A stretch of DNA of 64,000 nt from Elusimicrobiota bacterium (GTDB taxonomy: Bacteria > Elusimicrobiota > Elusimicrobia > UBA1565 > UBA9628). The stretch's first letter is position 1, and every line of letters begins with the position of its first letter. The notes below the pieces were generated by a model. That model had not been told where the DNA came from and did not search any database. It was given only the letters and a program-made list of their open reading frames with translations. This document shows positions 12,116 to 54,616 of the stretch, in pieces. The translations under genes and the position numbers were made by a program. Location: contig DATLUA010000014.1 in NCBI GenBank assembly GCA_035533295.1, positions 28,534 through 92,533 of the forward strand, written 5' to 3'.

Positions 12116-13954
12116 ATGCCTCCGGCATTTAACGTTCGACCCAAGGCGCTAGTCCTGCTTCCGGCTTGGCGGGAAAGAAGCTCGGATGAAGAGGCGTGGA
12201 TTTCCGCGCTGTTGCGCCAGTCGGGCCGATCTCTGGGCGCTATAATCGTCCATGACCCAGGATTCCCCGGCGAGCGCCGGGGCGGGCTTCATTTCTCCCA
12301 CCGGCACTGGCGGGATTTCCGGGAACAGTGCAAGGAGGCGATCTTCGAGAATCCCATCGAAGTCGTCGTCGCCATAGGAGAAGCCGCCAAGGCTGAGAAC
12401 CTTGACGCCTTGTCCGGCTGGGCGCCCAACATTCCGCGCGTCTCCTTGTTCTTGGAGGCGGATCTTTCCGGCCCAAGGCCGCTGCGTCTCAAATCTATTT
12501 CTGACTGCTCTGATCTCGTTTTGTACCGGGGAGACTGGAAAAGCGGCGGCGGGCGCGATTCGTGCATCGGGTTCATCCGAGAGCCGGAAGACGTCCTGCA
12601 GCACATCCGCAACCGCTTCGCGTTGCAATGGCTGCATGTCGGCGCGCCGGAGCCCAAGAGCCCGCCGACCGTCGATATTTTCACGCGTCGAGGGGGAGAA
12701 GCGCGCGCTCGGATAAAACGACTGATTGGCGGACTGGGTCCTGCGGCGCGCGCTCGGCATGTCGAGCTGAGTGGTTTTCGGCAAGCCAATGGAGGCGCGG
12801 CCTTTTGGAATGCAGCGTTTCGCTCTTCTCGCGCTGATTACCTGGTATTTTTGAACGAACTGTTTTGGCTTCCGGACAAAGCCCTGGCCCGGATGCTGGA
12901 GTACTTCAAGATGGGTTCCGCGCTGGCCGTGGTCGGCGCCGCGAGCCGGGAAGCCGCCGATTTGAAGGAAGTTCGCCGCCTGGCTTCGCTCCATCACATG
13001 TCCGGAGGGCATCGGGAATGCGGGCGCTTCCTGCATGCGCACTGCTGGATGCTTAGCCGGCAGGCCTTGAGGCAGACGGGCTTCTTGGATGAAAGGTTCC
13101 GCTGCCGGCGGTTCGCTCTCTATGATTACGGATTCCGCTTGCGCCAAGCCGGGTTTCGGCTTTTCACCGCCACGGATATCGCGGCTTGGCGCATCGGGAA
13201 GAAGGCGGGCGAGGCTTGTGAACCATCCAGCAGCGCCGAGCGAGATCTGGAGCTTTTGGAGAGAAAGTGGTGTGAAAACGGAATCGGAGCTATACTAAGG
13301 CTTTCCCGCAAAACCCAGGGCGGAGGGAAAGCCGTTGCTGCCCGAGCAAACGAAAAGGATTCCGTCTTCGGCGCATGGTTCCGCCACGAGCGGTCGGATT
13401 CCGCAGGCATGAGCGCTGAACTGAGGAATTTGATGAATCAATCCAGGCACGAGAGCGCGCGTTTGTACGCGGATTTCCGCGGGGCCATAGAGGACCGCCA
13501 TGACCGGTTGAGCCGCGAACTCCGGAAAGCTATAGACGAGCGTCATGGCCAGATCACCCGGGATATTTGGAGCGCGGCGGAAAGCCTGCGCGCCCAATCG
13601 CAACGGATGCAGCACGACATGGAAAGATCCATCCGGCCAGAACTGGCCGGCGTGCTGTATCAGCTCCAGAAGCAAGAATCCGAAATCCGCGCATGGGAGC
13701 GGGATAACAGCGCCCGGGTGACGGATTTGCGCGAGGATATGGACGACCGCTATGATAAGCTCGGTCGCGACTTCCGGAGAATCACTGCTCAGATGAGCAA
13801 ACAGTTGAGCGCGGTGGCGGGAAGCTTTTTAGCAGCCATCCTCGCATTGCAGCAAAAACCTGTTCCTTTTCTTAAGAATGGAACAAAAAAAATGGGGAAC
13901 GATGGTGAAAAAACCGTTAAACGCGCGTCCTCCGATTTCCCCAAGGCGAAATAA
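12116..13954 (+). CDS. GT2-like (divergent) glycosyltransferase domain protein with long C-terminal coiled coil
   Basis: The central region FALYDYGFRLRQAGFRL parallels the EDYDYCLRxxQAGY block of the GT2 genes at 46492 and 48426. The DxD position reads NEL (FLNELF), so it may be non-canonical. The last ~200 aa are a heptad-rich coiled coil (RDFRGAIEDRHDRLSRELRKAIDERH...). This is the first gene of the plus-strand operon. Confidence 0.5.
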   Translation: MPPAFNVRPKALVLLPAWRERSSDEEAWISALLRQSGRSLGAIIVHDPGFPGERRGGLHFSHRHWRDFREQCKEAIFENPIEVVVAIGEAAKAENLDALSGWAPNIPRVSLFLEADLSGPRPLRLKSISDCSDLVLYRGDWKSGGGRDSCIGFIREPEDVLQHIRNRFALQWLHVGAPEPKSPPTVDIFTRRGGEARARIKRLIGGLGPAARARHVELSGFRQANGGAAFWNAAFRSSRADYLVFLNELFWLPDKALARMLEYFKMGSALAVVGAASREAADLKEVRRLASLHHMSGGHRECGRFLHAHCWMLSRQALRQTGFLDERFRCRRFALYDYGFRLRQAGFRLFTATDIAAWRIGKKAGEACEPSSSAERDLELLERKWCENGIGAILRLSRKTQGGGKAVAARANEKDSVFGAWFRHERSDSAGMSAELRNLMNQSRHESARLYADFRGAIEDRHDRLSRELRKAIDERHGQITRDIWSAAESLRAQSQRMQHDMERSIRPELAGVLYQLQKQESEIRAWERDNSARVTDLREDMDDRYDKLGRDFRRITAQMSKQLSAVAGSFLAAILALQQKPVPFLKNGTKKMGNDGEKTVKRASSDFPKAK

Positions 13955-15097
13955 ATGAGCCCGCGCCTCAGCTTGATTTTTAAGCTCCTCGCCGAGAAAG
14001 TCGACGCCGGCGTCGCGCGGCTGGACGGAAAAAAAGACGGCCAGCCCATCCGCGAGCTGCATTTGGAGCTCACCCACCGCTGCAACCTAAAATGCGTCAT
14101 GTGCCACCATTGGGAGATGCCTTTCAAGGATCGGGAATCGGTCAAGCGCGAGATGAATCTGGCGCAAATCCGTTCCTTCGTCGAAGGCTCGCAAAGGCTG
14201 AAGGACGTGGAAATCGTGGTCTTGACCGGCGGCGAGCCGTGGCTTAGGACGGACATCGTGGATGTCGCAGCTTTTTTATCCAGCCATTATCCCAAGGCGT
14301 CCTTGGGTATCTTGAGCAATTTCTGGAACACGGAGATGGTCCGCCGGCGCTTGAACGAGCTGCGCGCGCGCGGAGTCAAAAACCTCTGGCTGGGCTCTTC
14401 CCTGGACGGCTTGGAGGAGGCGCACGATGAGGTGCGCGGGCAAAAGGGAGCCTTTAAAGGCCTTATGGAAACCGCGCGCATGATGCGGGCGGAGTTTCCG
14501 GAGGTCCACTTCAGCTTCAGCTTCACCATCACGCCCAAGAACTACCGCGAGCTTTGGCCCGCCTACGAACTTGTCTCGGGCATGGGCTTGTGGTTCGGCG
14601 CCCAAATGGTGGTCGAGCACCAGAAATTCGAGGCGCCCGAGACATTCTCCTGGACCGATGGGCAGCTTTCCGAGATTGAGGGGCAAATTGAGCGGATTTT
14701 GCGGCACCTGGCCGATGAAAACCTGGCTTTGGAGCGCTTGATGCAAGGCAAAGACCGCGAGTCCCTGTGGCTTTGGACCAGACTTTTGTACTGGTGGTAC
14801 CTGGGCAAATACGCGCGCAAGCCCGAACGCTTCTTCAAGGACTGTCTGGCGGGGCAGAGATACGCCATGCTCAGCCCCGAGGGCGACGTATTCTTTTGTC
14901 CCGTGAACAAGCATCGCACCATCGGCAACGTGAAGGAGGCATCGTTCGACGGGGTCTGGGATTCTCGAAAAGCCGAGTCGGAACGGGGCTACGTGGATTC
15001 CTGCCAATGCGACTGCTGGCTTAATTGCATCGCCAATCCCGTTCTAGATCGCGCGATGGCGCTCGGGACGGGCAAGGCCGAGGGCGCGCTGCGATGA
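13955..15097 (+). CDS. radical SAM/SPASM domain protein
   Basis: CNLKCVMC radical SAM motif. C-terminal SPASM-type cysteines (FFCPVNKHRTIGNVKE...FDGVWDS...CQCDCWLNC). The start is immediately adjacent to the upstream stop. Confidence 0.85.
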   Translation: MSPRLSLIFKLLAEKVDAGVARLDGKKDGQPIRELHLELTHRCNLKCVMCHHWEMPFKDRESVKREMNLAQIRSFVEGSQRLKDVEIVVLTGGEPWLRTDIVDVAAFLSSHYPKASLGILSNFWNTEMVRRRLNELRARGVKNLWLGSSLDGLEEAHDEVRGQKGAFKGLMETARMMRAEFPEVHFSFSFTITPKNYRELWPAYELVSGMGLWFGAQMVVEHQKFEAPETFSWTDGQLSEIEGQIERILRHLADENLALERLMQGKDRESLWLWTRLLYWWYLGKYARKPERFFKDCLAGQRYAMLSPEGDVFFCPVNKHRTIGNVKEASFDGVWDSRKAESERGYVDSCQCDCWLNCIANPVLDRAMALGTGKAEGALR

Positions 15098-18066
15098 AAG
15101 TCGCCCTGGTCCAGGCGCCCTACGGCTACCGCGGCCGCGAGGCCCCGCCCTTTTCCGTAGTTTGCCTGGCCGGCTACGTGCGCCATCACGGCCATGCGCC
15201 GCTTTCCATCGATTTCGGCAACGCCCTTTACCATGCCAGTTCCCCGGATTCGCGGGTCATGTGGAATGCCGACCGGTATTCCTTCTGGGAAAATCCCGAC
15301 GCCATCGAACGCCTGCTTCATGAGACCCGTGGAACCACGGACGCTCTTATCCGGCGCATTCTCGAGAGCGGCGCGCGCGTCATCGGCTTCGCGACGCATA
15401 CCACGTCTTTTCTGGCGAGCTTGGCGCTGGCCGAAAGAATCAAGCGCGAGGATCCCTCTCGCCTCATCGTTTTCGGCGGCTACCAGTGCGCGCGCGAGAA
15501 GTCCGGCCTCGCCTTCGCGGCCGATTGGCGCGTCGACGGCGTCGCCGTCGGCGAGGGGGAGCAAACCCTCGTCGAAGCCCTGGCCGGCGTGGAGCGCACG
15601 GGACGCCTGCCGGCAATTCCTGGCCTTCTGGTGCGCGGCGAGGACGGCCGCGTCGTCGATTCCGGCGACCGCGAGCCCATCATGGACATGGACTCGATGC
15701 CGTTCCCGGATTATTCCGACTTTCGGGAGGACATCCGCGCCGGGCTTTATTCCGATCCGCGCCGCCTCGATGTCTTCGACGGGCGCAGTTGCGTGCGGCG
15801 CTGCGCTTTTTGCAACGAGTGGCAGTTTTGGGGGCGCTTCCGCTCCCGCAGCGGACGGCGGATTTTAGAGGAAATTCGGCACCAGATGTCGGAGCATCCC
15901 ACCATCAACCATTTTTATTTTACGGGGCTTCTGGTTAACGGCAATCTGCGCGAGCTCTCGCGTTTCTGCGACTTGGTTCTGGAAAGCGGCCTCAAGTTCA
16001 CCTGGGGCGGGCAGTCCATCGTCCAGCCCGGCATGGATGAAAAGATGCTCAAGAAGATGGCCGCGGCCGGCTGCCGGTGGCTCGGCTACGGCGTCGAGAG
16101 CGGATCTGAGGCGGTGCGCTGGCGCATCAATAAGAAATTCACCAACGAGAACGCATACAAGACGCTCCGAGCGACGGCGGAGGCGGGCATCAAGGCCCAA
16201 ATCAACGTCATGTTCGGCATGCCCAGCGAAACGCGTGACGAATTTCAGGAGACGCTGTCCTTCTTGACCCGCGTCAGACCGTACCTGGACTCGATTCTGG
16301 CCAGCCAATCCTTCTGCGTCATCGATAAGGACACGCCCCTGCACCGCAATCCCGAGCGCTACGGGATCACCAATCAGGATCACCACCTTTTTTGGGAATC
16401 CAACGGCGGCGAGAACAACTACGCCGAGCGCTTCCGGCGCTATGAAGAATTTTGCAAGCTGGCGCTGTTCTTGGGAGTTCCGGAAACTTCGGGCGTGCTC
16501 TCGCGCAAGCCGGATAAGTGGTTTTTGCTGGGCTCGTATTACGAGTATAAAAAGCAGCCGCTCAAGGCCGTGCTCTATCTGCGCCGCTCTCTCCTCCATG
16601 AAATTGTTGGCAAGGACACTCTGACCCGGCTGGCCGGGCTTTACGCGCAATTGCGGCATCCGGCCCGCGCCTGGGCTTTACTGCAGGCGGCCCTGAGTCT
16701 GACGCCCGAGGGCGCTGCGGATGCCGGCGACGATAGCCTGCGCGTCCGCCGGGACGCCCTTTTTCCTTCCGTTCAGGATAAGTCCCTCGCGATGATCTGG
16801 CTCAGGCGCAGGCCGTGGGGACGCGCCCTGCGCCTCAAAGAGGCGGATTCAGTTGCTGCGGAGCGTAACGGCACGGGGGAAGCCGCGCGCCGCGCAGCGA
16901 ACATCGCCTTGAACGGGGACGAGTTTAACGGCCGCAAGGAGGTCCTTTCCTCGACCCCGTCGTTGGTCACTTTGGGGACCCATAACGCGTGCAACGCCAA
17001 GTGCGTCTTTTGTCTGGAAGGCAGCTATTCGCGCTTTAGCCTCGATATCTACAAGAAATTTTTCGAGGCGAAGATGGGACACTTCATACGCCAAGCGGAT
17101 CGGGTGACTTTCACCGGCTTTGGAGAAATCCTGTGGATACCCGGCATCGAGGAGTTCTTGGACTACATCAATGAGACTCTCCCCGACGCGGAGAAAATTT
17201 TCACGACCAATGGGACGCCGCTGCGTCCTTCGGTTCTTGAACGCATCGCGAAGGGGAAATACGGCATCCAAATCTCGCTGCATGCCTCCCACGCCGCGCT
17301 TCATCAGGAATTGACCCTCTTGAACGGGCAGTTCGGACAAATCTTGGAAAATATCAGAAGCCTAAGCGCACTGCGGCAGCGCCCTGGATTGGATAAAAGG
17401 ATTTTCGTTCATTTAGTCAACGTTCTGACCCGGCGGAATATCGACGATTTGACCGATTTTATCCGAATGTCCGTGGATTTGGGCGTTCAGAGCGTCCGCT
17501 GTCAGCATGTGACGATGTTCGTTCCCGAGCATATCGAGCAATCTTGCTTTTTCGATCAGGAACGGGCCAACGCCAGCATCCGACGCGCCGCGACCTTGGT
17601 GGAGGCGATCAAGCTCAAGCACCCGAAGACGACTTTTATTGCCTCGTTGCCGCCTCTTTTTGGTTCCCGCGCCCAACTGCAAAACACCGTCTGTTACGAT
17701 CCGTGGCAGCATGTCTATGTCGAACTCCAGGGCTCGGTCATTCCTTGCTGCATGTGGGGCGACCACATTGGGAACTTGAACAAGGGCGATGATATCGACA
17801 AGGTGTGGAACAGCCGATTCTACCAGGACTTGCGCCGCGGCATGGCTTCCGGGGATCCGCATCCTTGGTGCAAAAGCTGCGTGCGCTACGCCGGCTACAA
17901 CGTGGACAGTATTTTCTGCCACATCACCAACCGTCCCGAGGCCCAAAAGGCAGTTTTACGGGAAGTTCTGCGGCGAGGCTTGCCTCTGGAAAAATCCGAC
18001 AAGGCCGCGGCCGCGAAAATGCTCGGCAAGAATATGCCTGCCGGTTCGGGGGTCCTCGCGGCATGA
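15094..18066 (+). CDS. fusion: B12-binding-domain radical SAM + TPR-like linker + second radical SAM/SPASM domain
   Basis: The N-terminal half has MKVALVQAP, a GEGEQTL cobalamin-domain motif and CVRRCAFC. The C-terminal half has CNAKCVFC plus SPASM (VIPCCMWGDHIGNL...VWNS...CKSCVRYAG). ATGA overlap with the upstream gene at 15094. The ORF is trimmed from 15025. Confidence 0.85.
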   Translation: MKVALVQAPYGYRGREAPPFSVVCLAGYVRHHGHAPLSIDFGNALYHASSPDSRVMWNADRYSFWENPDAIERLLHETRGTTDALIRRILESGARVIGFATHTTSFLASLALAERIKREDPSRLIVFGGYQCAREKSGLAFAADWRVDGVAVGEGEQTLVEALAGVERTGRLPAIPGLLVRGEDGRVVDSGDREPIMDMDSMPFPDYSDFREDIRAGLYSDPRRLDVFDGRSCVRRCAFCNEWQFWGRFRSRSGRRILEEIRHQMSEHPTINHFYFTGLLVNGNLRELSRFCDLVLESGLKFTWGGQSIVQPGMDEKMLKKMAAAGCRWLGYGVESGSEAVRWRINKKFTNENAYKTLRATAEAGIKAQINVMFGMPSETRDEFQETLSFLTRVRPYLDSILASQSFCVIDKDTPLHRNPERYGITNQDHHLFWESNGGENNYAERFRRYEEFCKLALFLGVPETSGVLSRKPDKWFLLGSYYEYKKQPLKAVLYLRRSLLHEIVGKDTLTRLAGLYAQLRHPARAWALLQAALSLTPEGAADAGDDSLRVRRDALFPSVQDKSLAMIWLRRRPWGRALRLKEADSVAAERNGTGEAARRAANIALNGDEFNGRKEVLSSTPSLVTLGTHNACNAKCVFCLEGSYSRFSLDIYKKFFEAKMGHFIRQADRVTFTGFGEILWIPGIEEFLDYINETLPDAEKIFTTNGTPLRPSVLERIAKGKYGIQISLHASHAALHQELTLLNGQFGQILENIRSLSALRQRPGLDKRIFVHLVNVLTRRNIDDLTDFIRMSVDLGVQSVRCQHVTMFVPEHIEQSCFFDQERANASIRRAATLVEAIKLKHPKTTFIASLPPLFGSRAQLQNTVCYDPWQHVYVELQGSVIPCCMWGDHIGNLNKGDDIDKVWNSRFYQDLRRGMASGDPHPWCKSCVRYAGYNVDSIFCHITNRPEAQKAVLREVLRRGLPLEKSDKAAAAKMLGKNMPAGSGVLAA

Positions 18067-18800
18067 CCGAATGGTCCGGGCGGCTCGAGGGCGACGCCGT
18101 CTGGAGCGGCGACGTATTGGTCTCCGGGGACGTGGTCGTTCCGCCGGGCGCCAAGCTGCGCGTGGCAGCCGGCACCCGGGTCAGCTTCGCTTCCCGACCG
18201 AAGTGGTCCTGCGCGGTTTTTCGCGCGGCGCCGGAGGGCTACCCCATCGAGGCATCCGATCGGGAAGCCTGCGATCTCGTGGTTTTGGGCCAGCTCGAAG
18301 TCGCTGGCTCACCGGAAAACCCTGCCGTCTTTGGCGGCCAGGACGCCCAGTGGGGCGGCATGATTTTTTTGGAGCGCGCGGCGGCAACTCTCCAGCATTG
18401 CGTAATTAAAGTTGGAACTGAATACGCTCTGCAGGCTTTCGACGATGCGCGCTTGGCCCTGGAGGACTGCGGGTTGGAAGAGGCGCAGGTGGGAATCGCG
18501 TCCCGCGGGCTTTCCCACGTTAGCATTTTAGGCGGCCGCGTGCGCGCTGGGCGCTGCGGCGCGGTGGCCTGCGAAGGCTCGCGTATAACCTTGGACAAGA
18601 CTCAGATTCTGGATTCGCCGCAAGGGCTCTGCGCGGAGGATTGGGCGCTCGTCCGGGCGACGGGATCCCGATTCACGGCCAACAGAGATTTCGCCGTTTC
18701 GGCCCGAGGGTATTCCTGGGCGCGGTTCGACGGCTGCGACTTTGAGAAATCCGGCGAAACGGCTCTCAGGTGGGAACATGCCAGAATCGATGTCCGCTAG
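18063..18800 (+). CDS. right-handed beta-helix repeat protein
   Basis: Repetitive G-x-V/L beta-helix rungs (GDAVWSGDVLVSGDVVVPPGAKLRVAAGTRVSF; LGGRVRAGRCGAVACEGSRITL). ATGA overlap at 18063. The ORF is trimmed from 17805. Confidence 0.6.
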   Translation: MTEWSGRLEGDAVWSGDVLVSGDVVVPPGAKLRVAAGTRVSFASRPKWSCAVFRAAPEGYPIEASDREACDLVVLGQLEVAGSPENPAVFGGQDAQWGGMIFLERAAATLQHCVIKVGTEYALQAFDDARLALEDCGLEEAQVGIASRGLSHVSILGGRVRAGRCGAVACEGSRITLDKTQILDSPQGLCAEDWALVRATGSRFTANRDFAVSARGYSWARFDGCDFEKSGETALRWEHARIDVR

Positions 18801-43838: not shown

Positions 43839-43839
43839 C

Positions 43840-47316: not shown

Positions 47317-48429
47317 ATGCCCCCTACTCGTCCTGAGGTCGAAAGCTCTCCGGCGACGGTCTTCGCCAAGGACAAGATTTACGGCCATATGGACCGGGTC
47401 CGCGAATGGGTCCAGACCGGCCTTTCCCGCCCCGTCACCATCGAGATGGACCTCACCAATCTGTGCAATCAGAAGTGTCCGCACTGCTTCGGCTACGCGC
47501 CTGAGCGGGATGCGGCGCGCATGCACTTGGAGGAAGCCAAGCGCATCATCTCCCAGATTAAAGAGGTCGGCGCGCGCGGCCTGACGTTCACGGGCGGCGG
47601 CGATCCTCTAGTGAGCCCCATTTGCCTGCCCTGCGTCGAGCACGCCCGCTCCCTGGGCCTGGACGTGGGCTTTATCACCAACGCGCAGGCCCTGACCGAG
47701 GCGCACGCGCGGACGCTCTTGTCCTGCTGCCAGTGGCTGCGCGTGAGCATCGACGCCGCCACCCCGGAAGTGTTCATGAAGACGCACGGGATGGATGAAA
47801 AAATGTTCCGCAAAGTGCTGGACAATGTCCGGCTCCTGGCGCGCATCAAGCGCGAGACGGCCTCCGCTTGCACCTTGGGCGTCGGATTTTTGACCAGCCC
47901 CGAGACCAAGAAGGACATCTACGCTTTCGCCGAACTGGGCCTTGATTCGGGCGTGGATTACGCGCAGTACCGGCCTCTCCTGCGCCGCCACGGCGCGGCG
48001 GACGTGGACTATTCCGATCCGGAAATTCTCTCAGAGATGCGCCGAGCCGCGGCCTTGTCGACCGCGGCTTACCGCGTGGTTTCTTCCGAGCACAAATACG
48101 AGCTCATCGCCCGAGGCGAGCTCGAGCGGGACTATAAGAAATGCTACGGCCAGCATTTCGCGGCGGTTGTCTCCGCGGACAAGAAAATGTATGTCTGCTG
48201 CCACATGCGCGGCGTGGAGAAATACTGCCTGGGCGACTTGTCCAAGCAAAGCTTGAATGAGATTTGGTCATCCGAACACCGGAAAAAAGTGGCGGAGAGC
48301 GTGGACTTCAAGGATTGCCCCCCGTTGTGCCGCTGCGATTCCTTTAATACGATTCTCTGGAAAATAAAGGAAGAAGGCGCGCCGGCGGATTCGGACCCGC
48401 AGCCGCGCGCGCATCCGAACTTCATTTGA
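47317..48429 (+). CDS. radical SAM/SPASM domain protein
   Basis: CNQKCPHC and C-terminal SPASM (KKMYVCCHM...LNEIWSSEH...CPPLCRCDS). Confidence 0.85.
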   Translation: MPPTRPEVESSPATVFAKDKIYGHMDRVREWVQTGLSRPVTIEMDLTNLCNQKCPHCFGYAPERDAARMHLEEAKRIISQIKEVGARGLTFTGGGDPLVSPICLPCVEHARSLGLDVGFITNAQALTEAHARTLLSCCQWLRVSIDAATPEVFMKTHGMDEKMFRKVLDNVRLLARIKRETASACTLGVGFLTSPETKKDIYAFAELGLDSGVDYAQYRPLLRRHGAADVDYSDPEILSEMRRAAALSTAAYRVVSSEHKYELIARGELERDYKKCYGQHFAAVVSADKKMYVCCHMRGVEKYCLGDLSKQSLNEIWSSEHRKKVAESVDFKDCPPLCRCDSFNTILWKIKEEGAPADSDPQPRAHPNFI

Positions 48430-49763
48430 GCCGGCAATCGCCGATGCGAACGCGGATGGCCGCGCCGGCTAAAATCCGAGCGATTGTTCCCAGGCTGAGG
48501 GAAGATTCGTGCGCCGCGTTCGCCCACCGGCTAAAGAGATTTCTCCGCGCCCTGCCTCGCGGGACCGAGGAGATTTTTGCCGGCGAGGAACTTGGAGACG
48601 CCGGCGTTGCGCCGCTTAAAAACCTCCGAGACCTGGGCATCGTCGTCGTCGAGCACGCGCTGACCCAGCCGGTTCTGCGCCATCTCTCGCGCGAGTCGCC
48701 CTTTTTATCCTTGATCGTCGCGCGGCTTTGCCGCGATGACGGCGCGGATTCCTTTTCCGGGCACTGGATGCCAAACTGGTACGGCACTCCGCCGGTCTGG
48801 GCCGAGGAGCTCTGGGACTTTTCCCGGGATTTCGAGTCCGAGGAGAAATCCCGCCTTCTGCCGCGGCGGGTCTTTTTGGGGCAAAAAATCGAAAGCGGCT
48901 GGATCGCGGAGCGCCTGGGTGAAATCGAACGGATGCGGCCCGCTCGTCCGCGGCGCGGTTTGGCCAGCATCATCATTCCCTGCTGGAACGGCCTTGCCTA
49001 CACGCGCAAATGCCTGGCTTCCGTTCTCAAGCGCACCGACGGACCGCACGAAATCATCATCGTTGACAACGGCTCCAAGGACGGCACGGCAGGCTACGTC
49101 CAGTCCTTGAAGAACCCGAAAATCAGGCTTATCAAGAACCGGAGCAACCGCGGTTTTCCCGTGGCGGTGAATCAGGGGATGAGGGCGGCCAGGGGCGATT
49201 ACTTCGTTTGGTTGAACAGCGACGCGGTCGTGACTGACGGCTGGCTGGGGCGCCTGGTCTCGTGGGCCGAACGTTCGCCGCGGGTCGGCGCGGTCGGGCC
49301 CTGCTCCAATGATCCGGGGATATCGTTCCAGCTCCAGGACGGCGCGCCCCAAGGAAGCGACAAGGCCGCCGCGTTCGCGCGGGCGCTCGCCGAGATGAAT
49401 TCAGGCCGCAGTACTTGGGTGCCGCTGATTACCGGCTTTTGCTTTTTGGTCAAGAAAGAAGCCGTCGACCGCATCGGGCTTTTGGATGAGCGCTTCGGCC
49501 TGGGCATTTACGAGGATTATGACTACTGCCTAAGGCTGCGGCAGGCCGGCTACGGAATTTTGATGGCGCAGGACGTCTTTGTCCATCATTCCCGTCACAA
49601 GACCTTCGAGCATAACGGCGTCGACGATCCGTCCGCCGCAGCCGGAAACCGGGACTTGTTCATCCATAAGTGGTGCCGCTTGGCGATGGAGTTTTTGGAC
49701 AGCTGCGGCAACTCGCAGTTTTTTACGCTAAAAGCGCCCGATAAACTTCGCCGATCCCTTTAG
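48426..49763 (+). CDS. GT2 family glycosyltransferase with ~180-aa N-terminal extension
   Basis: SIIIPCWNGLAYT, VDNGSKDGT, LNSDAVV and YEDYDYCLRLRQAGYGIL. The TTG at 48426 forms a TTGA overlap with the upstream gene; the ATG at 48444 is an alternative start. Confidence 0.8.
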   Translation: MSRQSPMRTRMAAPAKIRAIVPRLREDSCAAFAHRLKRFLRALPRGTEEIFAGEELGDAGVAPLKNLRDLGIVVVEHALTQPVLRHLSRESPFLSLIVARLCRDDGADSFSGHWMPNWYGTPPVWAEELWDFSRDFESEEKSRLLPRRVFLGQKIESGWIAERLGEIERMRPARPRRGLASIIIPCWNGLAYTRKCLASVLKRTDGPHEIIIVDNGSKDGTAGYVQSLKNPKIRLIKNRSNRGFPVAVNQGMRAARGDYFVWLNSDAVVTDGWLGRLVSWAERSPRVGAVGPCSNDPGISFQLQDGAPQGSDKAAAFARALAEMNSGRSTWVPLITGFCFLVKKEAVDRIGLLDERFGLGIYEDYDYCLRLRQAGYGILMAQDVFVHHSRHKTFEHNGVDDPSAAAGNRDLFIHKWCRLAMEFLDSCGNSQFFTLKAPDKLRRSL

Positions 49764-50961
49764 CGCGGGCCGACCAGTCATGGTTTTGCTGGACGAAGTC
49801 TTGTCCCGCCGCGGAGAGGCGCCGCCAGAGCTCCTCGTCTTCCAGCAGCCGCAGGGTTTCCCGGGCGAATTTCCTGGGCGAGTCGGCGATGAGCAGGTGG
49901 CGGCCGGCCTCGGCGCCCACGGCTTCGTTGGCGCAGGCCGTGGAGACCACCGGCGTGCCCATGGCCAGGGCCTCGAGGATTTTTCCTTTGATGCCGTAGC
50001 CCAGCTTGAGCGGCGCCACCAGGACCATCGCGCGGGCTTCGTAGGGCTTGACGTCCGGGACGGTGCCGGTGACGACGATGCCGGCATCCTTCGCGGCCAA
50101 GTCTAGAATGTTTTTCGTCGGATAGGAGCCGACGACGTAAAACTTGGCTCGCGGCCGCGCCGCCTTAATTCTCGGCCAGGTTTGGGCGGCGAAGCGCAGC
50201 ACCGCCTCCTCGTTCGGGTAATGCGGGTAGTGACCGACGTAAACGAGGCTGTCGGGCTCGCGCTCCCGGCGCGGCGGCCCTCCCGAGAAATGCTCCAAAT
50301 CCACGCCGGTCGGAACGCTGAAGACGCGGTTAAGGGGAACCCAGCGGCCCATCCGCCGCCGGTCGGCTTCGCTTACGGTGATGACGGCCTCGAAGCGGCG
50401 GCACAGTTCCTTTGTCGCGCGCAGTCTCCTGCGCCAGTCGCCTAATCGGCGCCATTTATTCCAGCCGGACATCTCCCGAAAATAGGACGAGAAAAAGGAC
50501 AGCGCGGAAAGGTCGTGGTGCGTCAGGACGCAGGGAAGCCTTGGATTCTCCGATTTCGCGGCGCGGACATAGGGCGCCATCAAGTCGAACTCCGCGTGAA
50601 GCAGGTCGGGCTTTATTTCGCGGACGGCTTTTTTCACGGCTTCGTTCATGTCGGGGGCGTGGAATCCCGCGATTTCCCGGGGCAGATCCAGGCCATCATC
50701 CATCCGCGGAAAATAATTCGCCGGCGGCGCCGCGTGCCGGAGGCTCTGGAACAAGCCCTGGAAATAGAGCTTTTCTTGGCACAGGGCCGCGGCGGCGGTT
50801 TGCTTGGGGTCATCCCCGCCGGGGCGCAGGAAGGTCAGCAGGTGAAAATCGTATGAGTCCTTGAGCAGGCGGCAGGCGGTCCAAATGCGCCGGGAGCCGG
50901 CGTCGGTGGGAATCGGCGCCCAGGGAGTCAGCAGCAGGACTTTCGGTTTGCGCGCGCTCAT
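49723..50961 (-). CDS. GT4 (GT-B fold) glycosyltransferase
   Basis: C-terminal donor-binding block (KGKILEALAMGTPVVST...ADSPRKFA). The 478-aa ORF is trimmed to MSARKPKVLLLTPW at 50961. It overlaps the convergent GT2 at 48426-49763 by 41 nt. Confidence 0.75.
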   Translation of the reverse strand: MSARKPKVLLLTPWAPIPTDAGSRRIWTACRLLKDSYDFHLLTFLRPGGDDPKQTAAAALCQEKLYFQGLFQSLRHAAPPANYFPRMDDGLDLPREIAGFHAPDMNEAVKKAVREIKPDLLHAEFDLMAPYVRAAKSENPRLPCVLTHHDLSALSFFSSYFREMSGWNKWRRLGDWRRRLRATKELCRRFEAVITVSEADRRRMGRWVPLNRVFSVPTGVDLEHFSGGPPRREREPDSLVYVGHYPHYPNEEAVLRFAAQTWPRIKAARPRAKFYVVGSYPTKNILDLAAKDAGIVVTGTVPDVKPYEARAMVLVAPLKLGYGIKGKILEALAMGTPVVSTACANEAVGAEAGRHLLIADSPRKFARETLRLLEDEELWRRLSAAGQDFVQQNHDWSARAKGIGEVYRALLA

Positions 50962-50972: not shown

Positions 50973-52001
50973 TTATTTTATAAAAGATTTGGGCAAAGGC
51001 CTTCCGGCGAGAAATCCGGTTCCGTAGGCGAGATGGCACAGCGGCACCAGCGCGAAAAACAGGAGTCCGGCGGCCGGGTTTTTGCTCTTCCAGGCGCCGC
51101 GAGCGGCCGCTCCGGCGGCGGCCAGGGCGTAGAGCGCGGGCGCTATCCAAAAGGGCCAAGCGGGCCGCGCGGCGGCCAGAAAAACGGCGTAAAGGACGAG
51201 GACGGCGGGGAAGAAGAACACGGCTTGGGCCGCGCGCGGGAGCTTGCGCGTGATTTGCCGCCGGCCCACGCCCGATTCGTAGACCTGAGACAGGAATTTC
51301 CCCAGTTCGGCTCGCCGGCGATGATAAACGGCCAGGACCGGGGCGTAGAGCGCGCGGCGTCCCAAGGCGCGAAGATTTAAAACGAAAAGATTTTCCTCCG
51401 CGGAGGCCAGATGAGGATCAAAGCGCAGCCCCAATTCCCGAAAAGCCGCCGCCCGCGCGCAAAGATTGCACAGGGCGAAGGATTTTTCATCGGCCCGGAG
51501 CATCCGAGGCCCGGGGGCGTAGCGCCGGCGCATGGGTCCCGCGCCAATCCAGGATTCCAGCACTAGGCCCGAGGCGCGCTCGAAAAGGCCGCTGCCGGGC
51601 GGCGTCAAGTTTGGCCCGCCCAAAACCCACGCGTCGCCGTGCTTAGCGATAAGGCTGGCCGCCTCCGCGAAGAGCCCCGGCGGGGCCTCGACGTCGTCAT
51701 CGAGGAAGTAAATCCATTCTCCCCGCGTCCGCGCCAGGGCGGCGTTGCGCGCGGCCCCGCGCGATTGCCGCTCCAGCAGGATGATTTCCAGGCATGGGAT
51801 AAGAGCCGAGAACGAGCGCGCCATGTCGACGTCTTCCATATCCTCCCCGTTGACGGCGACGACGATTTCCCGGACCAAGCGCAGATCCGCCGCCTGCAGG
51901 CTCCTGAGGCAGGAACGCAGGAGCTCCGGGCGCCGGTGGGTGAGGACCAGCACGGAGAAAAGAGCTTCGCGGCTCGATGCGCCTGCCGGAGCGGGCGTCA
52001 T
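50973..52001 (-). CDS. GT2 family glycosyltransferase, C-terminal TM helices
   Basis: FSVLVLTHRR, a DDD motif (IYFLDDDVE) and C-terminal hydrophobic helices. The ORF is trimmed from 52100 to M34 (52001), giving an ATGA overlap with the upstream gene. Confidence 0.7.
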   Translation of the reverse strand: MTPAPAGASSREALFSVLVLTHRRPELLRSCLRSLQAADLRLVREIVVAVNGEDMEDVDMARSFSALIPCLEIILLERQSRGAARNAALARTRGEWIYFLDDDVEAPPGLFAEAASLIAKHGDAWVLGGPNLTPPGSGLFERASGLVLESWIGAGPMRRRYAPGPRMLRADEKSFALCNLCARAAAFRELGLRFDPHLASAEENLFVLNLRALGRRALYAPVLAVYHRRRAELGKFLSQVYESGVGRRQITRKLPRAAQAVFFFPAVLVLYAVFLAAARPAWPFWIAPALYALAAAGAAARGAWKSKNPAAGLLFFALVPLCHLAYGTGFLAGRPLPKSFIK

Positions 52002-54616
52002 GGCCCGGCCGGCGCGGCCTTGGGCAGCGCGTTCAACTGCCGCATGAGAGCATCGGCGTCCGCGTTTTTGCCCGATTCCCGATAGGCTTGGGCCAGCCAT
52101 TCGTAGGCGGCGCGATAGTCCGGAAAATCGGCGATGGCCCGCTTCCAGGCTTGTTCGGCTTTAGAGAGGCGGCCCTGGCGGCAGTAGCAGATGCCCATAT
52201 TGGTCCATGTTGGCGCCAGATCCTCGCCCCGGTCGGACGGAAGGGAATTGGCGATGGCCGCGCGGTAGTCCTTGATGGCTGCGGGAAAGTCCCCTTCCTG
52301 CAGGTAAACGTTGCCCATGTTGTTTAAGAGGCTGGGGTGCCCGGGAAAAAGGTCCAGGGCCAGCAGTAGGTATTTCTTGGCTTGGCCCAGGTCGCCGCGC
52401 ATTTCGTACAAGCCGCCCAAGTTGTTGAGCGCCTCGATTTTACGCGGATCGAGAGTCAGGGTTTTTTTATACAACGCGATGGCCTTGTCGGCATGGCCCG
52501 ATTGCTGTTCGATGACGGCCAGGTTGTAGGCCGCGTCCGAATAGCCGTTGTCCAAAGCCAAGGCTTTTTCCAAGGATTGCTCGGCATCGGCGGTCAGGCC
52601 GCAATGCTCCTGCGCCATGCCCAGGTTGTAGCGTGATGCGGCGTCGTTGGGACTGCGGGCGATGGCGCGGCGAAGCCACTCGAGGGCTTGGGGGCATTCC
52701 GCGGCGTGATCGTACTCGACTCCTAGGTTCATCATGGCTCGCGCGTCTTTCGGCGCGGCGGCCAAAAAAGACGCCCAAGTCTGGATCGCTTCCCGAATCT
52801 CGCCGCGTTTGTCCAAAAGGAACGCGAACGCGAACCGCGCTTCGAAGCTGCGCGGATTTTTTCGCACGGCCTCCTGCAGCTGATAGGCGGCCAAGTCCGG
52901 CCGCCCTGTTTTTTCTAAAAGCTCCGCAAGGTTGATTTGGGCCGGAGTGTCGTTCGGATTTTCCAGCAGCGCTTTGTGATAGGCCGCCATCGCGCCGATG
53001 AATTTGCCTTGGCGCGCCAGCGCGGCGCCGAGGCTGTCGTAGGGAATGGAATTGCCGGGATTAAGGCCGGCTGCCTTGGAATAAAGATTGAGCGCTCCCC
53101 GGGAACGGCCTTTTATTTCCTGCAGGCCGGCCAAGTTGTTAATAGCCTCCACGTAGCGGGGATTGAGCAAGATCGCGGTCTTGTAGTCTTGTTCCGCGCC
53201 GGCCCAATCGCCCTGGGCTTGCCGCATAAAACCCAGATTGTAATAGACCCTGGCGTTTTTTGTTTCCAGGGCGGCCTCCCGGCCGAAAAGCACGGCGTCG
53301 CTCTTCCAGTCGCGGTTGCGGGCCCGCGTCATCGCGGAAAATAAAAGGAGGACAGCGCCTATGCCAAAGGCTGCGACAAACCTGCGCAGCGGGCGCCCTT
53401 GTTTTGATATCCGGGCAAGTCCGAGCGAAGCAGCCCAGCCCATAATCCAGCAGGCGCCGATGGCGGCGGGATAGAGATAGCGTTCCGCCATGGGATTATA
53501 GAGCTTGACGATATTCGAGGCCGGCAGCAGGACGATGGCCGACCAACCCAGTGCCCAGCATGGGGGCCTTGCGCCCGCGGCATAGGCGCGATAACCGGCC
53601 GCGAAAAGAAAAACGAAGAGCGCCAAAGCCGCCCAGAGGCGCCAGTCCTTCCAGGAAGAAATCAGCGGCGGAGCCCGATCCGCGTGCAGTGGATAAGGAA
53701 TCGCCATCAGTTCGAAATAATTGGAGAAAACCACGCACATGGTCCTAAAATTGAGGGCGGGCGAATGATAAAGGGCGTCCCATTGAGGCGTGGAGGGGTT
53801 AAGCACTTCTTCCCGCGGGCTCGCGGCCGAAATTTGGGGGGGCGGATCGTCTTTCGCCGCTAGAACCGCCGGCGCGGCCGAAGAAGCGATGCTCTTGTAG
53901 CCCGATCTGTCGGACCTGAAATGCCAGTAGTACAGGGCCAGATAGCCGAAAACAAGCATGGCCGCGATCCGCCGCAGGCGATTCTCGCGCCAGGGCTTTT
54001 TCAGGAAGCAGAAATCAAACCACAAGGCCGCGGCCGGAAGAACCAGGGCGGTTTCCTTAGAGAATGCTCCGAAGGCGTAGGCCATCCCCGCCGCGGCCAG
54101 GGCCACGCCCGCGCTGCCCGTATCCGACGCCTTCTCCATTTTCCAGTAGGCCAGGAGAGCTAGAAGCATGAAAAAGGTGGCCAGGATATCCGGGCGGAAA
54201 CTAGGCATGTTCACGGCTTCCGTGTTAATCGGATGGACCCCGAAAGCCAGACCTGCGAGCAGGGCCGCGTCGGGCTCAAGGAAAATCAGGCCCGCCCGCC
54301 AGACCAGGACGGCGTTGAGCCCGTGGAGAACGATGTTGGTGAGATGATATCCGAAGGGAGCGTTTCCCCATAGCCGGTGGTCAAAAACGAGCGAGGCGAG
54401 GAAGACGGGGCGCGCCGCGCTGAGAATCGGGACGACGGGCGCGAGGTCAATTTGTTCCACGAGCGTTTTTAAGGCCGAGGGATTGGCCAGAAAAGCGTTG
54501 TTCTCAATGAGGATGTGATCGTCCCAGCAAAAGCCGTTTTTGAGCGAATTGGAGTAGGCGAAAAACGCCGCGGCGAAAATCACCGCGCCCAGGCAGAGGT
54601 TTTTTATTTTTGACAC
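51998..54616 (-). CDS. TMTC-like TPR-repeat membrane protein (putative GT-C fold)
   Basis: The N-terminal ~450 aa are polytopic, with a TMTC/DUF1736-like signature (FAYSNSLKNGFCWDDHILIENN). The C-terminal ~450 aa are canonical TPR repeats. The start is trimmed to the GTG at about 54616, because the upstream part of the ORF overlaps mutM in another frame. Confidence 0.7.
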   Translation of the reverse strand: MSKIKNLCLGAVIFAAAFFAYSNSLKNGFCWDDHILIENNAFLANPSALKTLVEQIDLAPVVPILSAARPVFLASLVFDHRLWGNAPFGYHLTNIVLHGLNAVLVWRAGLIFLEPDAALLAGLAFGVHPINTEAVNMPSFRPDILATFFMLLALLAYWKMEKASDTGSAGVALAAAGMAYAFGAFSKETALVLPAAALWFDFCFLKKPWRENRLRRIAAMLVFGYLALYYWHFRSDRSGYKSIASSAAPAVLAAKDDPPPQISAASPREEVLNPSTPQWDALYHSPALNFRTMCVVFSNYFELMAIPYPLHADRAPPLISSWKDWRLWAALALFVFLFAAGYRAYAAGARPPCWALGWSAIVLLPASNIVKLYNPMAERYLYPAAIGACWIMGWAASLGLARISKQGRPLRRFVAAFGIGAVLLLFSAMTRARNRDWKSDAVLFGREAALETKNARVYYNLGFMRQAQGDWAGAEQDYKTAILLNPRYVEAINNLAGLQEIKGRSRGALNLYSKAAGLNPGNSIPYDSLGAALARQGKFIGAMAAYHKALLENPNDTPAQINLAELLEKTGRPDLAAYQLQEAVRKNPRSFEARFAFAFLLDKRGEIREAIQTWASFLAAAPKDARAMMNLGVEYDHAAECPQALEWLRRAIARSPNDAASRYNLGMAQEHCGLTADAEQSLEKALALDNGYSDAAYNLAVIEQQSGHADKAIALYKKTLTLDPRKIEALNNLGGLYEMRGDLGQAKKYLLLALDLFPGHPSLLNNMGNVYLQEGDFPAAIKDYRAAIANSLPSDRGEDLAPTWTNMGICYCRQGRLSKAEQAWKRAIADFPDYRAAYEWLAQAYRESGKNADADALMRQLNALPKAAPAGP

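What the first reader, a model, noticed from the sequence alone, without database searches (positions are those of the whole stretch)
12116..54616. Likely non-RiPP product: rSAM tailoring coupled to glycosyltransferases, SGNH esterases/acyltransferases and a TMTC-like GT-C
The island lacks a credible short precursor ORF. I scanned intergenic gaps at 22110-22164, 27503-27518, 29230-29256, 34155-34230 and 46427-46491 and found none. It does contain four GT2 or GT2-like enzymes, one GT4, a TMTC-like TPR membrane protein and three SGNH hydrolases. It sits directly beside kpsF, the Kdo-pathway arabinose-5-P isomerase. Class B rSAMs typically methylate unactivated carbons. Together this points to a radical-modified envelope glycoconjugate or lipid (for example C-methylated or cross-linked sugars or lipids, or a glycoprotein target recognised via TPR domains). 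This is a hypothesis only.
Basis: inference. Interest (0 to 1): 0.6.

Follow-up and report, generated by a model that had tools for sequence, protein, structure and literature searches.

The report
Radical-SAM mega-array with glycosylation genes
An uncultured Elusimicrobiota bacterium carries a 43-kb island of 15 radical-SAM enzyme genes tied to glycosyltransferases and membrane esterases. This uncharacterised locus type recurs in three phyla, and it is not known whether its product is built on a peptide, a sugar or a lipid.

Summary
The gene content is as described. There are four GT2 or GT2-like genes, one GT4, a PMT_2+TPR GT-C and three SGNH proteins, with kpsF next door. The island is 99% coding with gaps of 76 nt or less, so no short ORF fits.

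The finding understates the main feature. Fifteen of 33 genes are radical SAM (rSAM), giving 16 intact CX3CX2C domains plus one degenerate. The source is an uncultured Elusimicrobiota bacterium. Homologous arrays in the same gene order occur in Elusimicrobiota, Omnitrophota and Planctomycetota, with up to 22 contiguous rSAM genes.

Coupling to glycosylation is supported. In relatives, GT-C, GT2, GT4, YdjC and SGNH genes are interleaved with rSAM genes in one operon. Four domain fusions link the parts.

"Non-RiPP" is not established. Several relatives carry a PqqD peptide-chaperone gene between the orthologues of the GT2 and rSAM-SPASM genes found here. The island also lacks every polysaccharide initiation, polymerisation and export gene. 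The kpsF adjacency is incidental.

My best guess, at about 0.4, is a radical-tailored and then glycosylated polypeptide acceptor. A non-peptide glycoconjugate is nearly as likely, at about 0.3. No nitrogenase-like genes are present. Function is unknown and the locus type is essentially undescribed.

The parts
11410..12051 (+). g00, conserved 213-aa protein of unknown function.
   Evidence: Orthologues lie directly upstream of g01 in L088 (76% identity, a called gene) and L089 (38% identity). It has no reliable family match.
12116..13954 (+). g01, GT2-like domain plus C-terminal coiled coil. It is probably non-canonical.
   Evidence: Pfam GT2 scores 19.5 bits, below cut-off. BLASTP to g29 gives 7e-14 and to g27 1e-10. 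One source names its homologues GT2 family.
13955..15097 (+). g02, rSAM-SPASM.
   Evidence: Radical_SAM and SPASM domains. CNLKCVMC motif. Best NCBIfam matches are NirJ and AhbD at about 73 bits, far below cut-off.
15094..18066 (+). g03, a fusion of a cobalamin-type rSAM and an rSAM-SPASM (990 aa, two intact clusters).
   Evidence: B12-binding, two Radical_SAM domains and SPASM. Two CX3CX2C motifs. Gene call from L001.
18063..18800 (+). g04, right-handed beta-helix protein (245 aa).
   Evidence: Beta_helix scores 22.3 bits, a weak match. It is conserved in L007, L022, L035, L088 and L089. Its partner domain g26 is fused to a beta-helix in other organisms.
18778..20145 (+). g05, rSAM-SPASM. It is the first gene of the block that is conserved across phyla.
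20142..22109 (+). g06, cobalamin-type (class B) rSAM.
   Evidence: B12-binding and Radical_SAM. TIGR03975 scores 139 bits against a cut-off of 282.
22165..23337 (+). g07, rSAM-SPASM, a paralogue of the C-terminal half of g03.
23334..26138 (+). g08, g09 and g10: three small (282-335 aa) twitch-type rSAM paralogues.
   Evidence: Radical_SAM domain. STM4011-like at 72-73 bits against a cut-off of 200. They are 32-36% identical to each other. AF2 model pLDDT is 91.7.
26126..27502 (+). g11, a class-B rSAM homologue that has lost its CX3CX2C motif.
   Evidence: BLASTP to g06 gives 1e-69. The motif reads GCRWSHPSC here and in L007 and L008. It is intact in more distant orthologues.
27519..28595 (+). 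g12, small rSAM with a conserved Cys/Gly-rich N-terminal tag.
28588..29229 (+). g13, metallo-beta-lactamase-fold hydrolase.
   Evidence: Lactamase_B_2 and Lactamase_B_3. It is present in 16 of 47 arrays.
29257..30582 (+). g14, small rSAM with a (CGxG)n N-terminal tag and a Pro/Ala-rich insert.
30579..31133 (+). g15, 184-aa protein of unknown function with a C-terminal TM helix.
   Evidence: No family match. It is conserved in 8 array loci. TM helix at residues 135-153.
31130..32527 (+). g16, rSAM-SPASM with a TPR-like N-terminus. This type is amplified 5-7 times in Omnitrophota and Planctomycetota arrays.
32550..34154 (+). g17, class-B rSAM.
34231..35865 (+). g18, membrane-anchored SGNH-like domain plus TPR.
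   Evidence: Weak Lipase_GDSL_2 and TPR matches. 38% identical to g23. N-terminal TM helix.
35846..37102 (-). g19, membrane-anchored SGNH hydrolase.
   Evidence: Lipase_GDSL_2 at 53.8 bits. N-terminal TM helix.
37120..38845 (-). g21 and g20, a TPR protein split into two overlapping frames in the window.
   Evidence: TPR matches. The corresponding gene in L086 is a single 580-aa ORF.
38853..40184 (-). g22, class-B rSAM.
40234..41895 (-). g23, membrane-anchored SGNH-like domain plus TPR.
41901..43907 (-). g24, Sel1 repeats fused to an N-terminal-twitch rSAM.
   Evidence: NF033640 scores 394.8 bits against a cut-off of 170. Sel1 scores 95.9 bits. PDB Sel1 hits.
43840..44787 (-). g25, membrane-anchored TPR protein.
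44816..46426 (-). g26, Pol-beta-type nucleotidyltransferase-fold protein of a rare family.
   Evidence: No Pfam, NCBIfam or PADLOC hit. Invariant G-x-S-D-x-D motif. AF2 pLDDT is 89.5. The best PDB folds are aminoglycoside nucleotidyltransferases. It has 209 relatives among 1.84 billion representatives.
46492..47307 (+). g27, GT2.
   Evidence: Glycos_transf_2 at 85.6 bits. 68% identical to the L084 GT2 that precedes PqqD.
47317..48429 (+). g28, rSAM-SPASM.
   Evidence: 75% identical to the L084 rSAM-SPASM that follows PqqD.
48426..49763 (+). g29, GT2 with an N-terminal domain of about 170 aa of unknown function.
49723..50958 (-). g30, GT4.
   Evidence: Glyco_trans_1_4 at 86 bits. The start is set by comparison with the 412-aa orthologues.
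50973..52001 (-). g31, GT2 with two C-terminal TM helices.
   Evidence: Its homologue in L083 is fused to a g26-like domain.
51998..54616 (-). g32, a PMT_2-type GT-C with about 11 TPRs (TMTC-like architecture).
   Evidence: The GTG start at 54616 overlaps the fpg stop codon. The orthologues are 859-870 aa.

Best explanation
**What the interval is.** It is one conserved, vertically inherited island (11410-54616) of an uncultured Elusimicrobiota bacterium.

**The core.** The core is a radical-SAM 'mega-array'. It recurs with the same gene order in Elusimicrobiota, Omnitrophota and Planctomycetota.

**Proposed mechanism (inferred).**
- The 15 soluble, hence cytoplasmic, rSAM enzymes perform a long series of radical tailoring steps on one oligomeric or polymeric substrate.
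  - Four are cobalamin-type and probably C-methylate.
  - Five are small twitch-type paralogues.
  - Six are SPASM or twitch types, probably doing H-abstraction-initiated cross-linking, oxidation or epimerisation.
- The same molecule is glycosylated in the cytoplasm by GT2 and GT4 enzymes.
- After export, a TM-anchored GT2 plus a GT-C/TPR pair glycosylates it at the periplasmic face.
- Three membrane-anchored SGNH enzymes then add or remove acyl groups.
- A beta-helix protein and an ANT-like nucleotidyltransferase act as accessory partners.

**The substrate.** It is not encoded as a short precursor in the island. I judge a polypeptide acceptor slightly more likely than a free glycan or lipid. 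That acceptor would be a protein, or a peptide encoded elsewhere or not recognised.
For: **Shown.**
- There are 15 rSAM genes with 16 intact CX3CX2C motifs.
- The island is syntenic in relatives between ValRS/KpsF and Fpg/PLD.
- Arrays with the order g05-g06-g07-small rSAMs occur in three phyla. One has 16 rSAM genes in 20 kb and one contig has 22.
- Glyco-enzymes are interleaved with rSAM genes in L083 and L085.
- Four domain fusions link rSAM, SGNH/TPR, GT2, g26 and beta-helix.
- All rSAM proteins lack TM segments. The SGNH proteins, the g25 TPR protein (not g20/g21), g31 and g32 are membrane-anchored.

**Pointing to a polypeptide.**
- PqqD is present in seven of 47 related arrays (nine fetched loci, two of them duplicates), in the orthologous GT2 | rSAM-SPASM position.
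- TPR or Sel1 domains are fused to rSAM, SGNH and GT-C proteins.
- The best, though sub-threshold, family matches of the class-B enzymes are RiPP C-methyltransferases. Those of the GT2s are MftF.
- GT-C plus TPR is the architecture of protein O-mannosyltransferases (established knowledge).
- No polysaccharide initiation, flippase, polymerase or export gene is present.
Against: - The window has no precursor, RRE, peptidase or exporter.
- PqqD is seen in only about 7 of 47 arrays, all in one Elusimicrobiota subgroup, and is absent from the two closest relatives.
- No conserved small ORF was found across about 75 loci.
- Only g24 among the rSAM enzymes reaches a curated family cut-off.
- Fold neighbours of the small rSAM mix peptide-modifying and sugar- or nucleotide-modifying enzymes.
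- The beta-helix, the ANT-like NTase fold, YdjC and SGNH lean towards carbohydrate chemistry.
Confidence: 0.4

Rival explanations
1. The product is a non-peptide envelope glycoconjugate or lipid. The rSAM enzymes C-methylate, deoxygenate, epimerise or cross-link sugars or lipid chains anaerobically. The GTs assemble the product and the SGNH enzymes acylate it.
For: - The window has no precursor, RRE, peptidase or exporter.
- GT2, GT4, GT-C, YdjC and SGNH genes are interleaved with rSAM genes in relatives.
- g26 has the fold of aminoglycoside O-nucleotidyltransferases and is fused to beta-helix (CASH-type) domains or to a GT2.
- A MurG-like GT is adjacent to, or fused with, rSAM genes in the distant cassette.
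- BlsE, SpeY and viperin are among the fold neighbours of the small rSAM.
- Most arrays outside one Elusimicrobiota subgroup show no PqqD.
Against: - The island has no NDP-sugar pathway genes, initiating phosphoglycosyltransferase, Wzx/Wzy, ABC transporter or outer-membrane export gene.
- It has no fatty-acid or isoprenoid genes.
- PqqD lies in the orthologous position in relatives.
- The kpsF adjacency is not conserved.
Confidence: 0.3
2. The product is a peptide-derived, glycosylated small molecule or cofactor, built in the manner of mycofactocin or PQQ. A short peptide, encoded elsewhere or missed, would be cross-linked by SPASM enzymes, trimmed and then glycosylated.
For: - A GT2-PqqD-rSAM/SPASM trio is present in L084.
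- All three GT2s have MftF as their best NCBIfam match, and g28 matches MftC weakly.
- An MBL-fold protein, g13, recurs in 16 of 47 arrays. PqqB has this fold (the PqqB fold is established knowledge).
Against: - Scores are far below cut-off: MftF 65-82 bits against 280, and MftC 56 bits against 265.
- There is no MftA-, MftD- or MftE-like gene and no peptidase.
- Fifteen to 22 rSAM enzymes, plus periplasmic SGNH, TPR and GT-C modules, are hard to fit to a small cofactor.
Confidence: 0.12
3. The array matures a tetrapyrrole-type cofactor. This was proposed for the rSAM suites next to group VI nitrogenase-like (NflHDK) genes of groundwater Elusimicrobia.
For: - Meheust et al. (bioRxiv 10.1101/765248) describe up to 13 rSAM genes, some with B12 domains, beside Nif paralogues in the same phylum.
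- The best matches of g02 are NirJ, AhbC and AhbD, and the class-B enzymes match BchE weakly.
Against: - No NifH-like ORF lies in the 64-kb window or within 10 kb of the small-rSAM match in any of the about 80 related loci then in hand.
- All tetrapyrrole-family scores are far below cut-off.
- This reading does not explain the GT, SGNH and GT-C modules.
Confidence: 0.05
4. The interval is not one system. An rSAM operon of unknown role happens to lie next to an ordinary envelope-glycosylation cluster.
For: - There are four transcription units in alternating orientation.
- fpg overlaps the start of g32, which suggests housekeeping co-transcription.
- GT genes are absent from many fetched arrays.
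Against: - rSAM and GT/SGNH genes are interleaved within single operons in L083 and L085.
- Four fusions cross the supposed boundary.
- The whole island is syntenic in three related populations.
Confidence: 0.08

Closest known systems
Radical-SAM suites beside group VI nitrogenase-like (NflHDK) genes of groundwater Elusimicrobia (Meheust et al. 2020, bioRxiv 10.1101/765248)
   Same: Same phylum and habitat type. Many adjacent rSAM genes are present, some with B12-binding domains. The function is unknown.
   Different: No NifH/D/K-like gene lies in the 64-kb window or within 10 kb of the small-rSAM match in the related loci tested. That paper does not describe the GT, SGNH and GT-C coupling or the small twitch-type paralogue family.
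Proteusin-type RiPP clusters (polytheonamide PoyB/C class-B rSAM C-methyltransferases; NCBIfam TIGR03975)
   Same: Several cobalamin-type rSAM enzymes are combined with other rSAM enzymes. TIGR03975 is the best family match of g03, g06, g17 and g22.
   Different: Scores are 129-139 bits against a cut-off of 281.85. The island has no NHLP or Nif11 precursor, RRE or protease.
Mycofactocin system (MftA-F)
   Same: A GT2, PqqD and rSAM-SPASM are grouped together in relative L084. MftF is the best match of the three GT2s.
   Different: All scores are far below cut-off. There are no MftA, MftD or MftE genes, and PqqD is absent from the window.
TMTC/PMT protein O-mannosyltransferases (GT-C plus TPR) with a polyprenyl-phosphate-sugar synthase
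   Same: g32 has a PMT_2 GT-C domain followed by about 11 TPRs. The adjacent g31 is a GT2 with C-terminal TM helices.
   Different: The system is bacterial, and donor and acceptor are unknown. g31 matches no characterised polyprenyl-phosphate glycosyltransferase family above cut-off.
Periplasmic alginate-modifying proteins (AlgK Sel1/TPR, AlgG beta-helix, AlgX/AlgJ SGNH)
   Same: The same set of folds is present: Sel1/TPR, right-handed beta-helix and SGNH. AlgK appears among the PDB and NCBIfam hits of the g24 Sel1 part.
   Different: There is no synthase, no co-polymerase and no porin. The Sel1 domain here is fused to a cytoplasmic rSAM enzyme.
STM4011-family radical SAM proteins (NCBIfam NF038073)
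   Same: This is the best family match of the five small rSAM paralogues.
   Different: Scores are 56-73 bits against a cut-off of 200. The Salmonella cassette context is absent.
Aminoglycoside O-nucleotidyltransferases (AadA/ANT(3'')(9), AAD(9))
   Same: They are the best PDB fold matches of the N-terminal half of g26. g26 has the G-x-S-D-x-D motif.
   Different: E is about 0.05, TM about 0.5 and identity 12%. g26 is twice as long and belongs to a separate rare family.

Membership tests
RiPP biosynthetic cluster (generic) | A short precursor peptide gene in the cluster | tested here: not met
   The island is 99.1% coding with gaps of 76 nt or less. No conserved small ORF other than PqqD was found across about 75 loci.
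RiPP biosynthetic cluster (generic) | A RiPP recognition element (PqqD-like domain), free or fused | tested here: not met
   hmmsearch --max and tblastn with the relatives' PqqD found nothing in the window. The rSAM N-termini are too short for a fused RRE. PqqD is present in seven related arrays (nine fetched loci, two of them duplicates).
RiPP biosynthetic cluster (generic) | A leader peptidase and/or a dedicated exporter | tested here: not met
   No peptidase or transporter domain occurs in any of the 33 island proteins.
Proteusin class-B rSAM C-methyltransferase (TIGR03975) | Score at or above the curated cut-off of 281.85 bits | tested here: not met
   Scores are 131, 139, 129 and 133 bits for g03, g06, g17 and g22.
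Mycofactocin system | MftC (TIGR03962, cut-off 265) and MftF (TIGR03965, cut-off 280) at cut-off, with MftA and MftB present | tested here: not met
   g28 scores 56 bits. g27, g29 and g31 score 65, 82 and 67 bits. No PqqD or MftA is present in the window.
STM4011-family rSAM (NF038073) | Score at or above 200 bits | tested here: not met
   The five small rSAMs score 56-73 bits.
N-terminal-twitch rSAM (NF033640) | Score at or above 170 bits over the full model | tested here: met
   g24 residues 270-666 score 394.8 bits over model positions 1-397 of 398.
Elusimicrobia group VI Nfl-associated rSAM suite | Adjacent NifH/NifD/NifK paralogues | tested here: not met
Pfam scans of the ORFs of at least about 200 aa in the flanks, plus all island genes, show none; smaller flank ORFs were not scanned.
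Capsule, O-antigen or exopolysaccharide locus | An initiating transferase, Wzx/Wzy or ABC transporter or synthase, and an outer-membrane export component | tested here: not met
   None of these appears among the Pfam and NCBIfam results for all island ORFs.
Prokaryotic viperin (pVip) defence | A full-length match to the pVip models | tested here: not met
   PADLOC hits cover only about the first 100 of 257 profile positions, which is the generic rSAM core.
GT-C plus TPR (TMTC-like architecture) | A PMT-type multi-TM GT-C domain followed by TPR repeats | tested here: met
   PMT_2 scores 30.1 bits against a cut-off of 26.1. TPR_1 and TPR_2 score about 150 bits. Multiple TM segments are present.
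SGNH/GDSL hydrolase | A Pfam score at cut-off and catalytic Ser and His blocks | tested here: met
   g19 scores 53.8 bits against a cut-off of 32.9. g18 and g23 are below cut-off at 22 and 26.5 bits. They keep GES-S and D-x-x-H motifs, read.
KpsF/GutQ (flanking gene) | TIGR00393 at or above 203.7 bits | tested here: met
   The score is 276 bits, and the match starts at residue 267 of the over-long ORF.

The most novel reading that the evidence does not exclude
The multi-phylum 'rSAM mega-arrays' could be a previously undescribed class of biosynthetic locus. In this reading, 15-25 different radical enzymes build, without any ribosomal precursor, a heavily C-methylated or cross-linked envelope glycoconjugate or glycolipid found only in anaerobic ultra-small bacteria of Elusimicrobiota, Omnitrophota and Planctomycetota.
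Probability: 0.3. Interest if true: 0.85.

Novelty: new variant of a known kind. Interest (0 to 1): 0.62.

Why it matters
Radical SAM enzymes perform chemistry that is otherwise hard to achieve. A conserved locus that lines up 15-22 of them with glycosylation and acyl-esterase enzymes implies an unusually elaborate product, and nobody has characterised it.

The locus occurs in three phyla that are almost entirely uncultured. The product may therefore be a hallmark envelope or secreted molecule of these organisms. The array is also a large reservoir of new rSAM activities.

The comparative data give concrete handles for experiments:
- The PqqD-containing relatives.
- The GT2-PqqD-rSAM/SPASM trio.
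- The domain fusions.
- The Cys-rich tags on g12 and g14.

Tried and rejected
**Searches that found nothing useful.**
- I looked for precursors in gaps and for conserved small ORFs across about 75 loci. Only PqqD and junk ORFs emerged. A 32-aa ORF upstream of an rSAM gene in L087 is basic and unconserved, so I rejected it.
- I searched for stand-alone peptides with the (CGxG)n motif. It occurs only at the N-termini of g14 orthologues.
- I tested the nitrogenase-paralogue link and found no NifH-like ORF.
- Rfam gave only two tRNAs.
- Literature searches for a description of these arrays found only the Meheust remark.

**Memberships rejected.**
- Defence-system (pVip) membership: only partial core hits.
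- Tes/GDGT lipid synthase: 24 bits against a cut-off of 450.

**Structure and family results that did not discriminate.**
- A PDB sequence search with the small rSAM gave no hit.
- Its AF2 model has mixed peptide-modifying and sugar-modifying neighbours.
- g00 might be a 'Glycolipid_bind' protein, but only one of four members gives a weak hit.
- The P-loop protein next to PqqD in L083 looks HPr-kinase-like by eye but has no Pfam or NCBIfam hit.
Full report
**Observation**

- GT2 genes lie at 46492-47307, 48426-49763 and 50973-52001.
- A GT2-like gene lies at 12116-13954. It scores below the Pfam cut-off but is homologous to the other GT2s.
- A GT4 lies at 49723-50958.
- A PMT_2 GT-C with about 11 TPRs lies at 51998-54616.
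- Of the three SGNH proteins, one is solid at 53.8 bits. The other two are weaker paralogues that keep the Ser and His blocks.
- KpsF is confirmed (TIGR00393, 276 bits against 203.7). Its 547-aa ORF is over-extended.

The island is 99.1% coding and its largest gap is 76 nt.

Two corrections apply.
- The island begins at 11410 with a conserved 213-aa gene, g00.
- The dominant feature is understated. Fifteen genes carry 16 intact CX3CX2C radical-SAM motifs, and one further class-B homologue (g11) has lost the motif.

**Anatomy**

There are four transcription units: g00-g18 (+), g26-g19 (-), g27-g29 (+) and fpg-g32-g31-g30 (-). Most genes overlap by a few bases.

Paralogue families:
- Class-B rSAM: g03 N-terminal half, g06, g17, g22 and g11.
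- Small twitch-type rSAM: g08, g09, g10, g12 and g14, at 30-37% identity.
- SPASM types: g02, g03 C-terminal half, g05, g07, g16 and g28.
- A Sel1-fused N-terminal-twitch rSAM, g24. It is the only rSAM above a curated cut-off (394.8 bits against 170).

All rSAM proteins are soluble. The SGNH proteins and one TPR protein have a single N-terminal TM helix. g31 has two C-terminal TM helices and g32 is polytopic. The island therefore encodes a cytoplasmic module and a module at the periplasmic face.

**Source and conservation**

Exact copies lie on metagenome contigs (ENA ERZ27256799, JGI 3300031670). Homologues of the small rSAM number only 66 clusters among 5.8 billion, and nearly all are Elusimicrobia.

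Three related populations keep the island in the same chromosomal place. The left side is ArgDC, Era, HemW, ValRS and KpsF. The right side is Fpg, rhodanese and PLD. This indicates vertical inheritance rather than a mobile element.

**The wider family**

A genome scan found 304 relatives.
- Loci from Elusimicrobiota, Endomicrobia, Omnitrophota and Planctomycetota are wall-to-wall rSAM genes with a conserved order. The order is g05, a class-B rSAM and g07 (these two are swapped in some Endomicrobia and Elusimicrobia loci), small paralogues, and then TPR-fused SPASM enzymes.
- One Planctomycetales locus has 16 rSAM genes in 20 kb.
- One Elusimicrobiota contig has 22 in about 31 kb and continues beyond the fetched DNA.

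I found no paper describing these arrays. The exception is a remark by Meheust et al. that groundwater Elusimicrobia carry an 'extensive suite' of rSAM genes beside nitrogenase paralogues.

No NifH-like ORF occurs within 10 kb of the small-rSAM match in the about 80 loci then in hand. Pfam scans of the window's island genes and larger flank ORFs show none either.

**Coupling to glycosylation**

In L083 and L085, PMT_2, a GT2-methyltransferase, GT2, GT4, YdjC and SGNH-TPR genes lie between rSAM genes in single operons.

Four fusions tie the parts together.
- Class-B rSAM + TPR + SGNH.
- g31-like GT2 + g26-like domain.
- g26 domain + beta-helix/NosD, in 8 of 8 large homologues tested and in L052.
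- A MurG-like GT fused to an rSAM in a compact cassette of Pirellulaceae, Myxococcota and Acidobacteriota.

Non-rSAM SGNH proteins accompany arrays in Elusimicrobiota, the Endomicrobia lineages within it, Omnitrophota and Planctomycetota.

**g26 and g04**

g26 has no family hit. It belongs to a rare family with 209 relatives among 1.84 billion representatives. It has an invariant G-x-S-D-x-D motif.

Its AF2 model is confident (pLDDT 89.5). The best PDB neighbours are aminoglycoside O-nucleotidyltransferases, with probability about 1 but E about 0.05.

Together with the beta-helix protein g04, it forms a split version of a protein that is fused elsewhere.

**Peptide or not**

The window has no precursor, no RRE, no peptidase and no exporter.

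Seven of 47 related arrays (nine fetched loci, two of them duplicates) carry a PqqD gene (62 bits against 23.4). Its best NCBIfam matches are lasso-peptide chaperones. In L084 it lies exactly between the orthologues of g27 (68% identity) and g28 (75% identity). At that identity, g28 probably keeps the same class of substrate.

The two closest relatives also lack PqqD.

The island also lacks every gene expected for a polysaccharide locus. It has no NDP-sugar pathway, initiating transferase, flippase, polymerase, ABC transporter or export protein. It has no lipid-synthesis gene either.

The kpsF adjacency is lost in L089 and in all other fetched loci.

The AF2 model of the small rSAM (pLDDT 91.7) has both peptide-modifying neighbours (SuiB, anSME, CteB, PqqE, EpeE) and sugar- or nucleotide-modifying ones (BlsE, viperin, MoaA, SpeY). 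It does not decide the question.

**Model**

Shown: one conserved island, the array family, the compartment split, and the coupling by synteny and fusion.

Inferred: cytoplasmic radical tailoring and GT2/GT4 glycosylation of one substrate. Periplasmic glycosylation by the g31/g32 pair and acyl editing by the SGNH proteins would follow.

I lean towards a polypeptide acceptor (confidence 0.4) for four reasons:
- PqqD is present in relatives.
- TPR and Sel1 fusions are pervasive.
- The GT-C plus TPR architecture is that of protein O-mannosyltransferases.
- Polysaccharide machinery is absent.

Lesser rivals are a mycofactocin- or PQQ-like glycosylated cofactor (0.12), a tetrapyrrole cofactor (0.05) and a chance juxtaposition of two clusters (0.08).

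**Novelty**

The individual enzyme superfamilies are known, and rSAM-rich clusters are a known kind. This array family, its spread over three phyla and its linkage to GT-C, SGNH and NTase modules appear undescribed. I rate it a new variant of a known kind, with a real chance of a new class of product.

Noticed in passing
window 27519-27570 and 29257-29310 (N-termini of g12 and g14): The small rSAMs g12 and g14 start with Cys/Gly-rich tags (MGSCGTGGCSGCG and MSGCGDKCGGCGGGCG). Similar tags, including (CGSG)n, are conserved in orthologues of at least 8 Elusimicrobiota loci. They occur nowhere else in the loci. They might bind metal, or act as built-in substrate-like tails.
   Followed up: partly
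window 26126-27502 (g11): This class-B rSAM homologue has lost the CX3CX2C motif (GCRWSHPSC). The loss is seen only in the window and its two closest relatives. More distant orthologues keep CPWSCRFC. It is a conserved pseudo-enzyme or a recent inactivation.
   Followed up: yes
window 37120-38845, minus strand: Two overlapping TPR ORFs in different frames (g21 and g20) correspond to one 580-aa gene in relative L086. This is a frameshift, either real or an assembly error.
   Followed up: partly
window 10330-11973, minus strand: The kpsF ORF is over-extended by about 210 codons. The family match starts at residue 267 and relatives have a 336-aa gene. The extension overlaps the real gene g00 on the other strand.
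   Followed up: yes
window 54604-54616: The GTG start of the GT-C gene g32 overlaps the stop codon of fpg by 13 nt. The same fpg to GT-C order is kept in two relatives. A DNA-repair gene therefore seems to be co-transcribed with the glycosylation unit.
   Followed up: partly
window 30579-31133 (g15): This 184-aa protein has no family hit and a C-terminal TM helix. It is conserved in 8 array loci. Its N-terminus (MKIYLSYS...) looks TIR- or flavodoxin-like by eye only.
   Followed up: no
L083 12645-13658 (minus strand): A 337-aa protein with a P-loop (SGGGKT) lies next to PqqD and looks HPr-kinase-like by eye. It has no Pfam or NCBIfam hit.
   Followed up: partly
L084 20301 onward: A sulfatase gene directly follows the GT2-PqqD-rSAM/SPASM trio. 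This could be a maturase-and-sulfatase type relation, but it was not tested.
   Followed up: no
L063, L070, L062, L064, L067, L073: A compact cassette occurs in Pirellulaceae, Myxococcota, Acidobacteriota and others. Its order is a coiled-coil protein, a MurG-like GT, an rSAM, two small rSAMs and a membrane-anchored protein with Asp-rich repeats. In L067 the GT is fused to the rSAM.
   Followed up: partly
L004 + L022 (contig JBGFSC010000007.1): At least 22 contiguous rSAM genes lie in about 31 kb, with two MBL genes and a class-B rSAM-TPR-SGNH fusion. The array runs past the fetched end.
   Followed up: partly
window 4937-6049: A HemW/HemN-like rSAM with a HemN_C domain lies outside the island among housekeeping genes. 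It is unrelated to the array.
   Followed up: no
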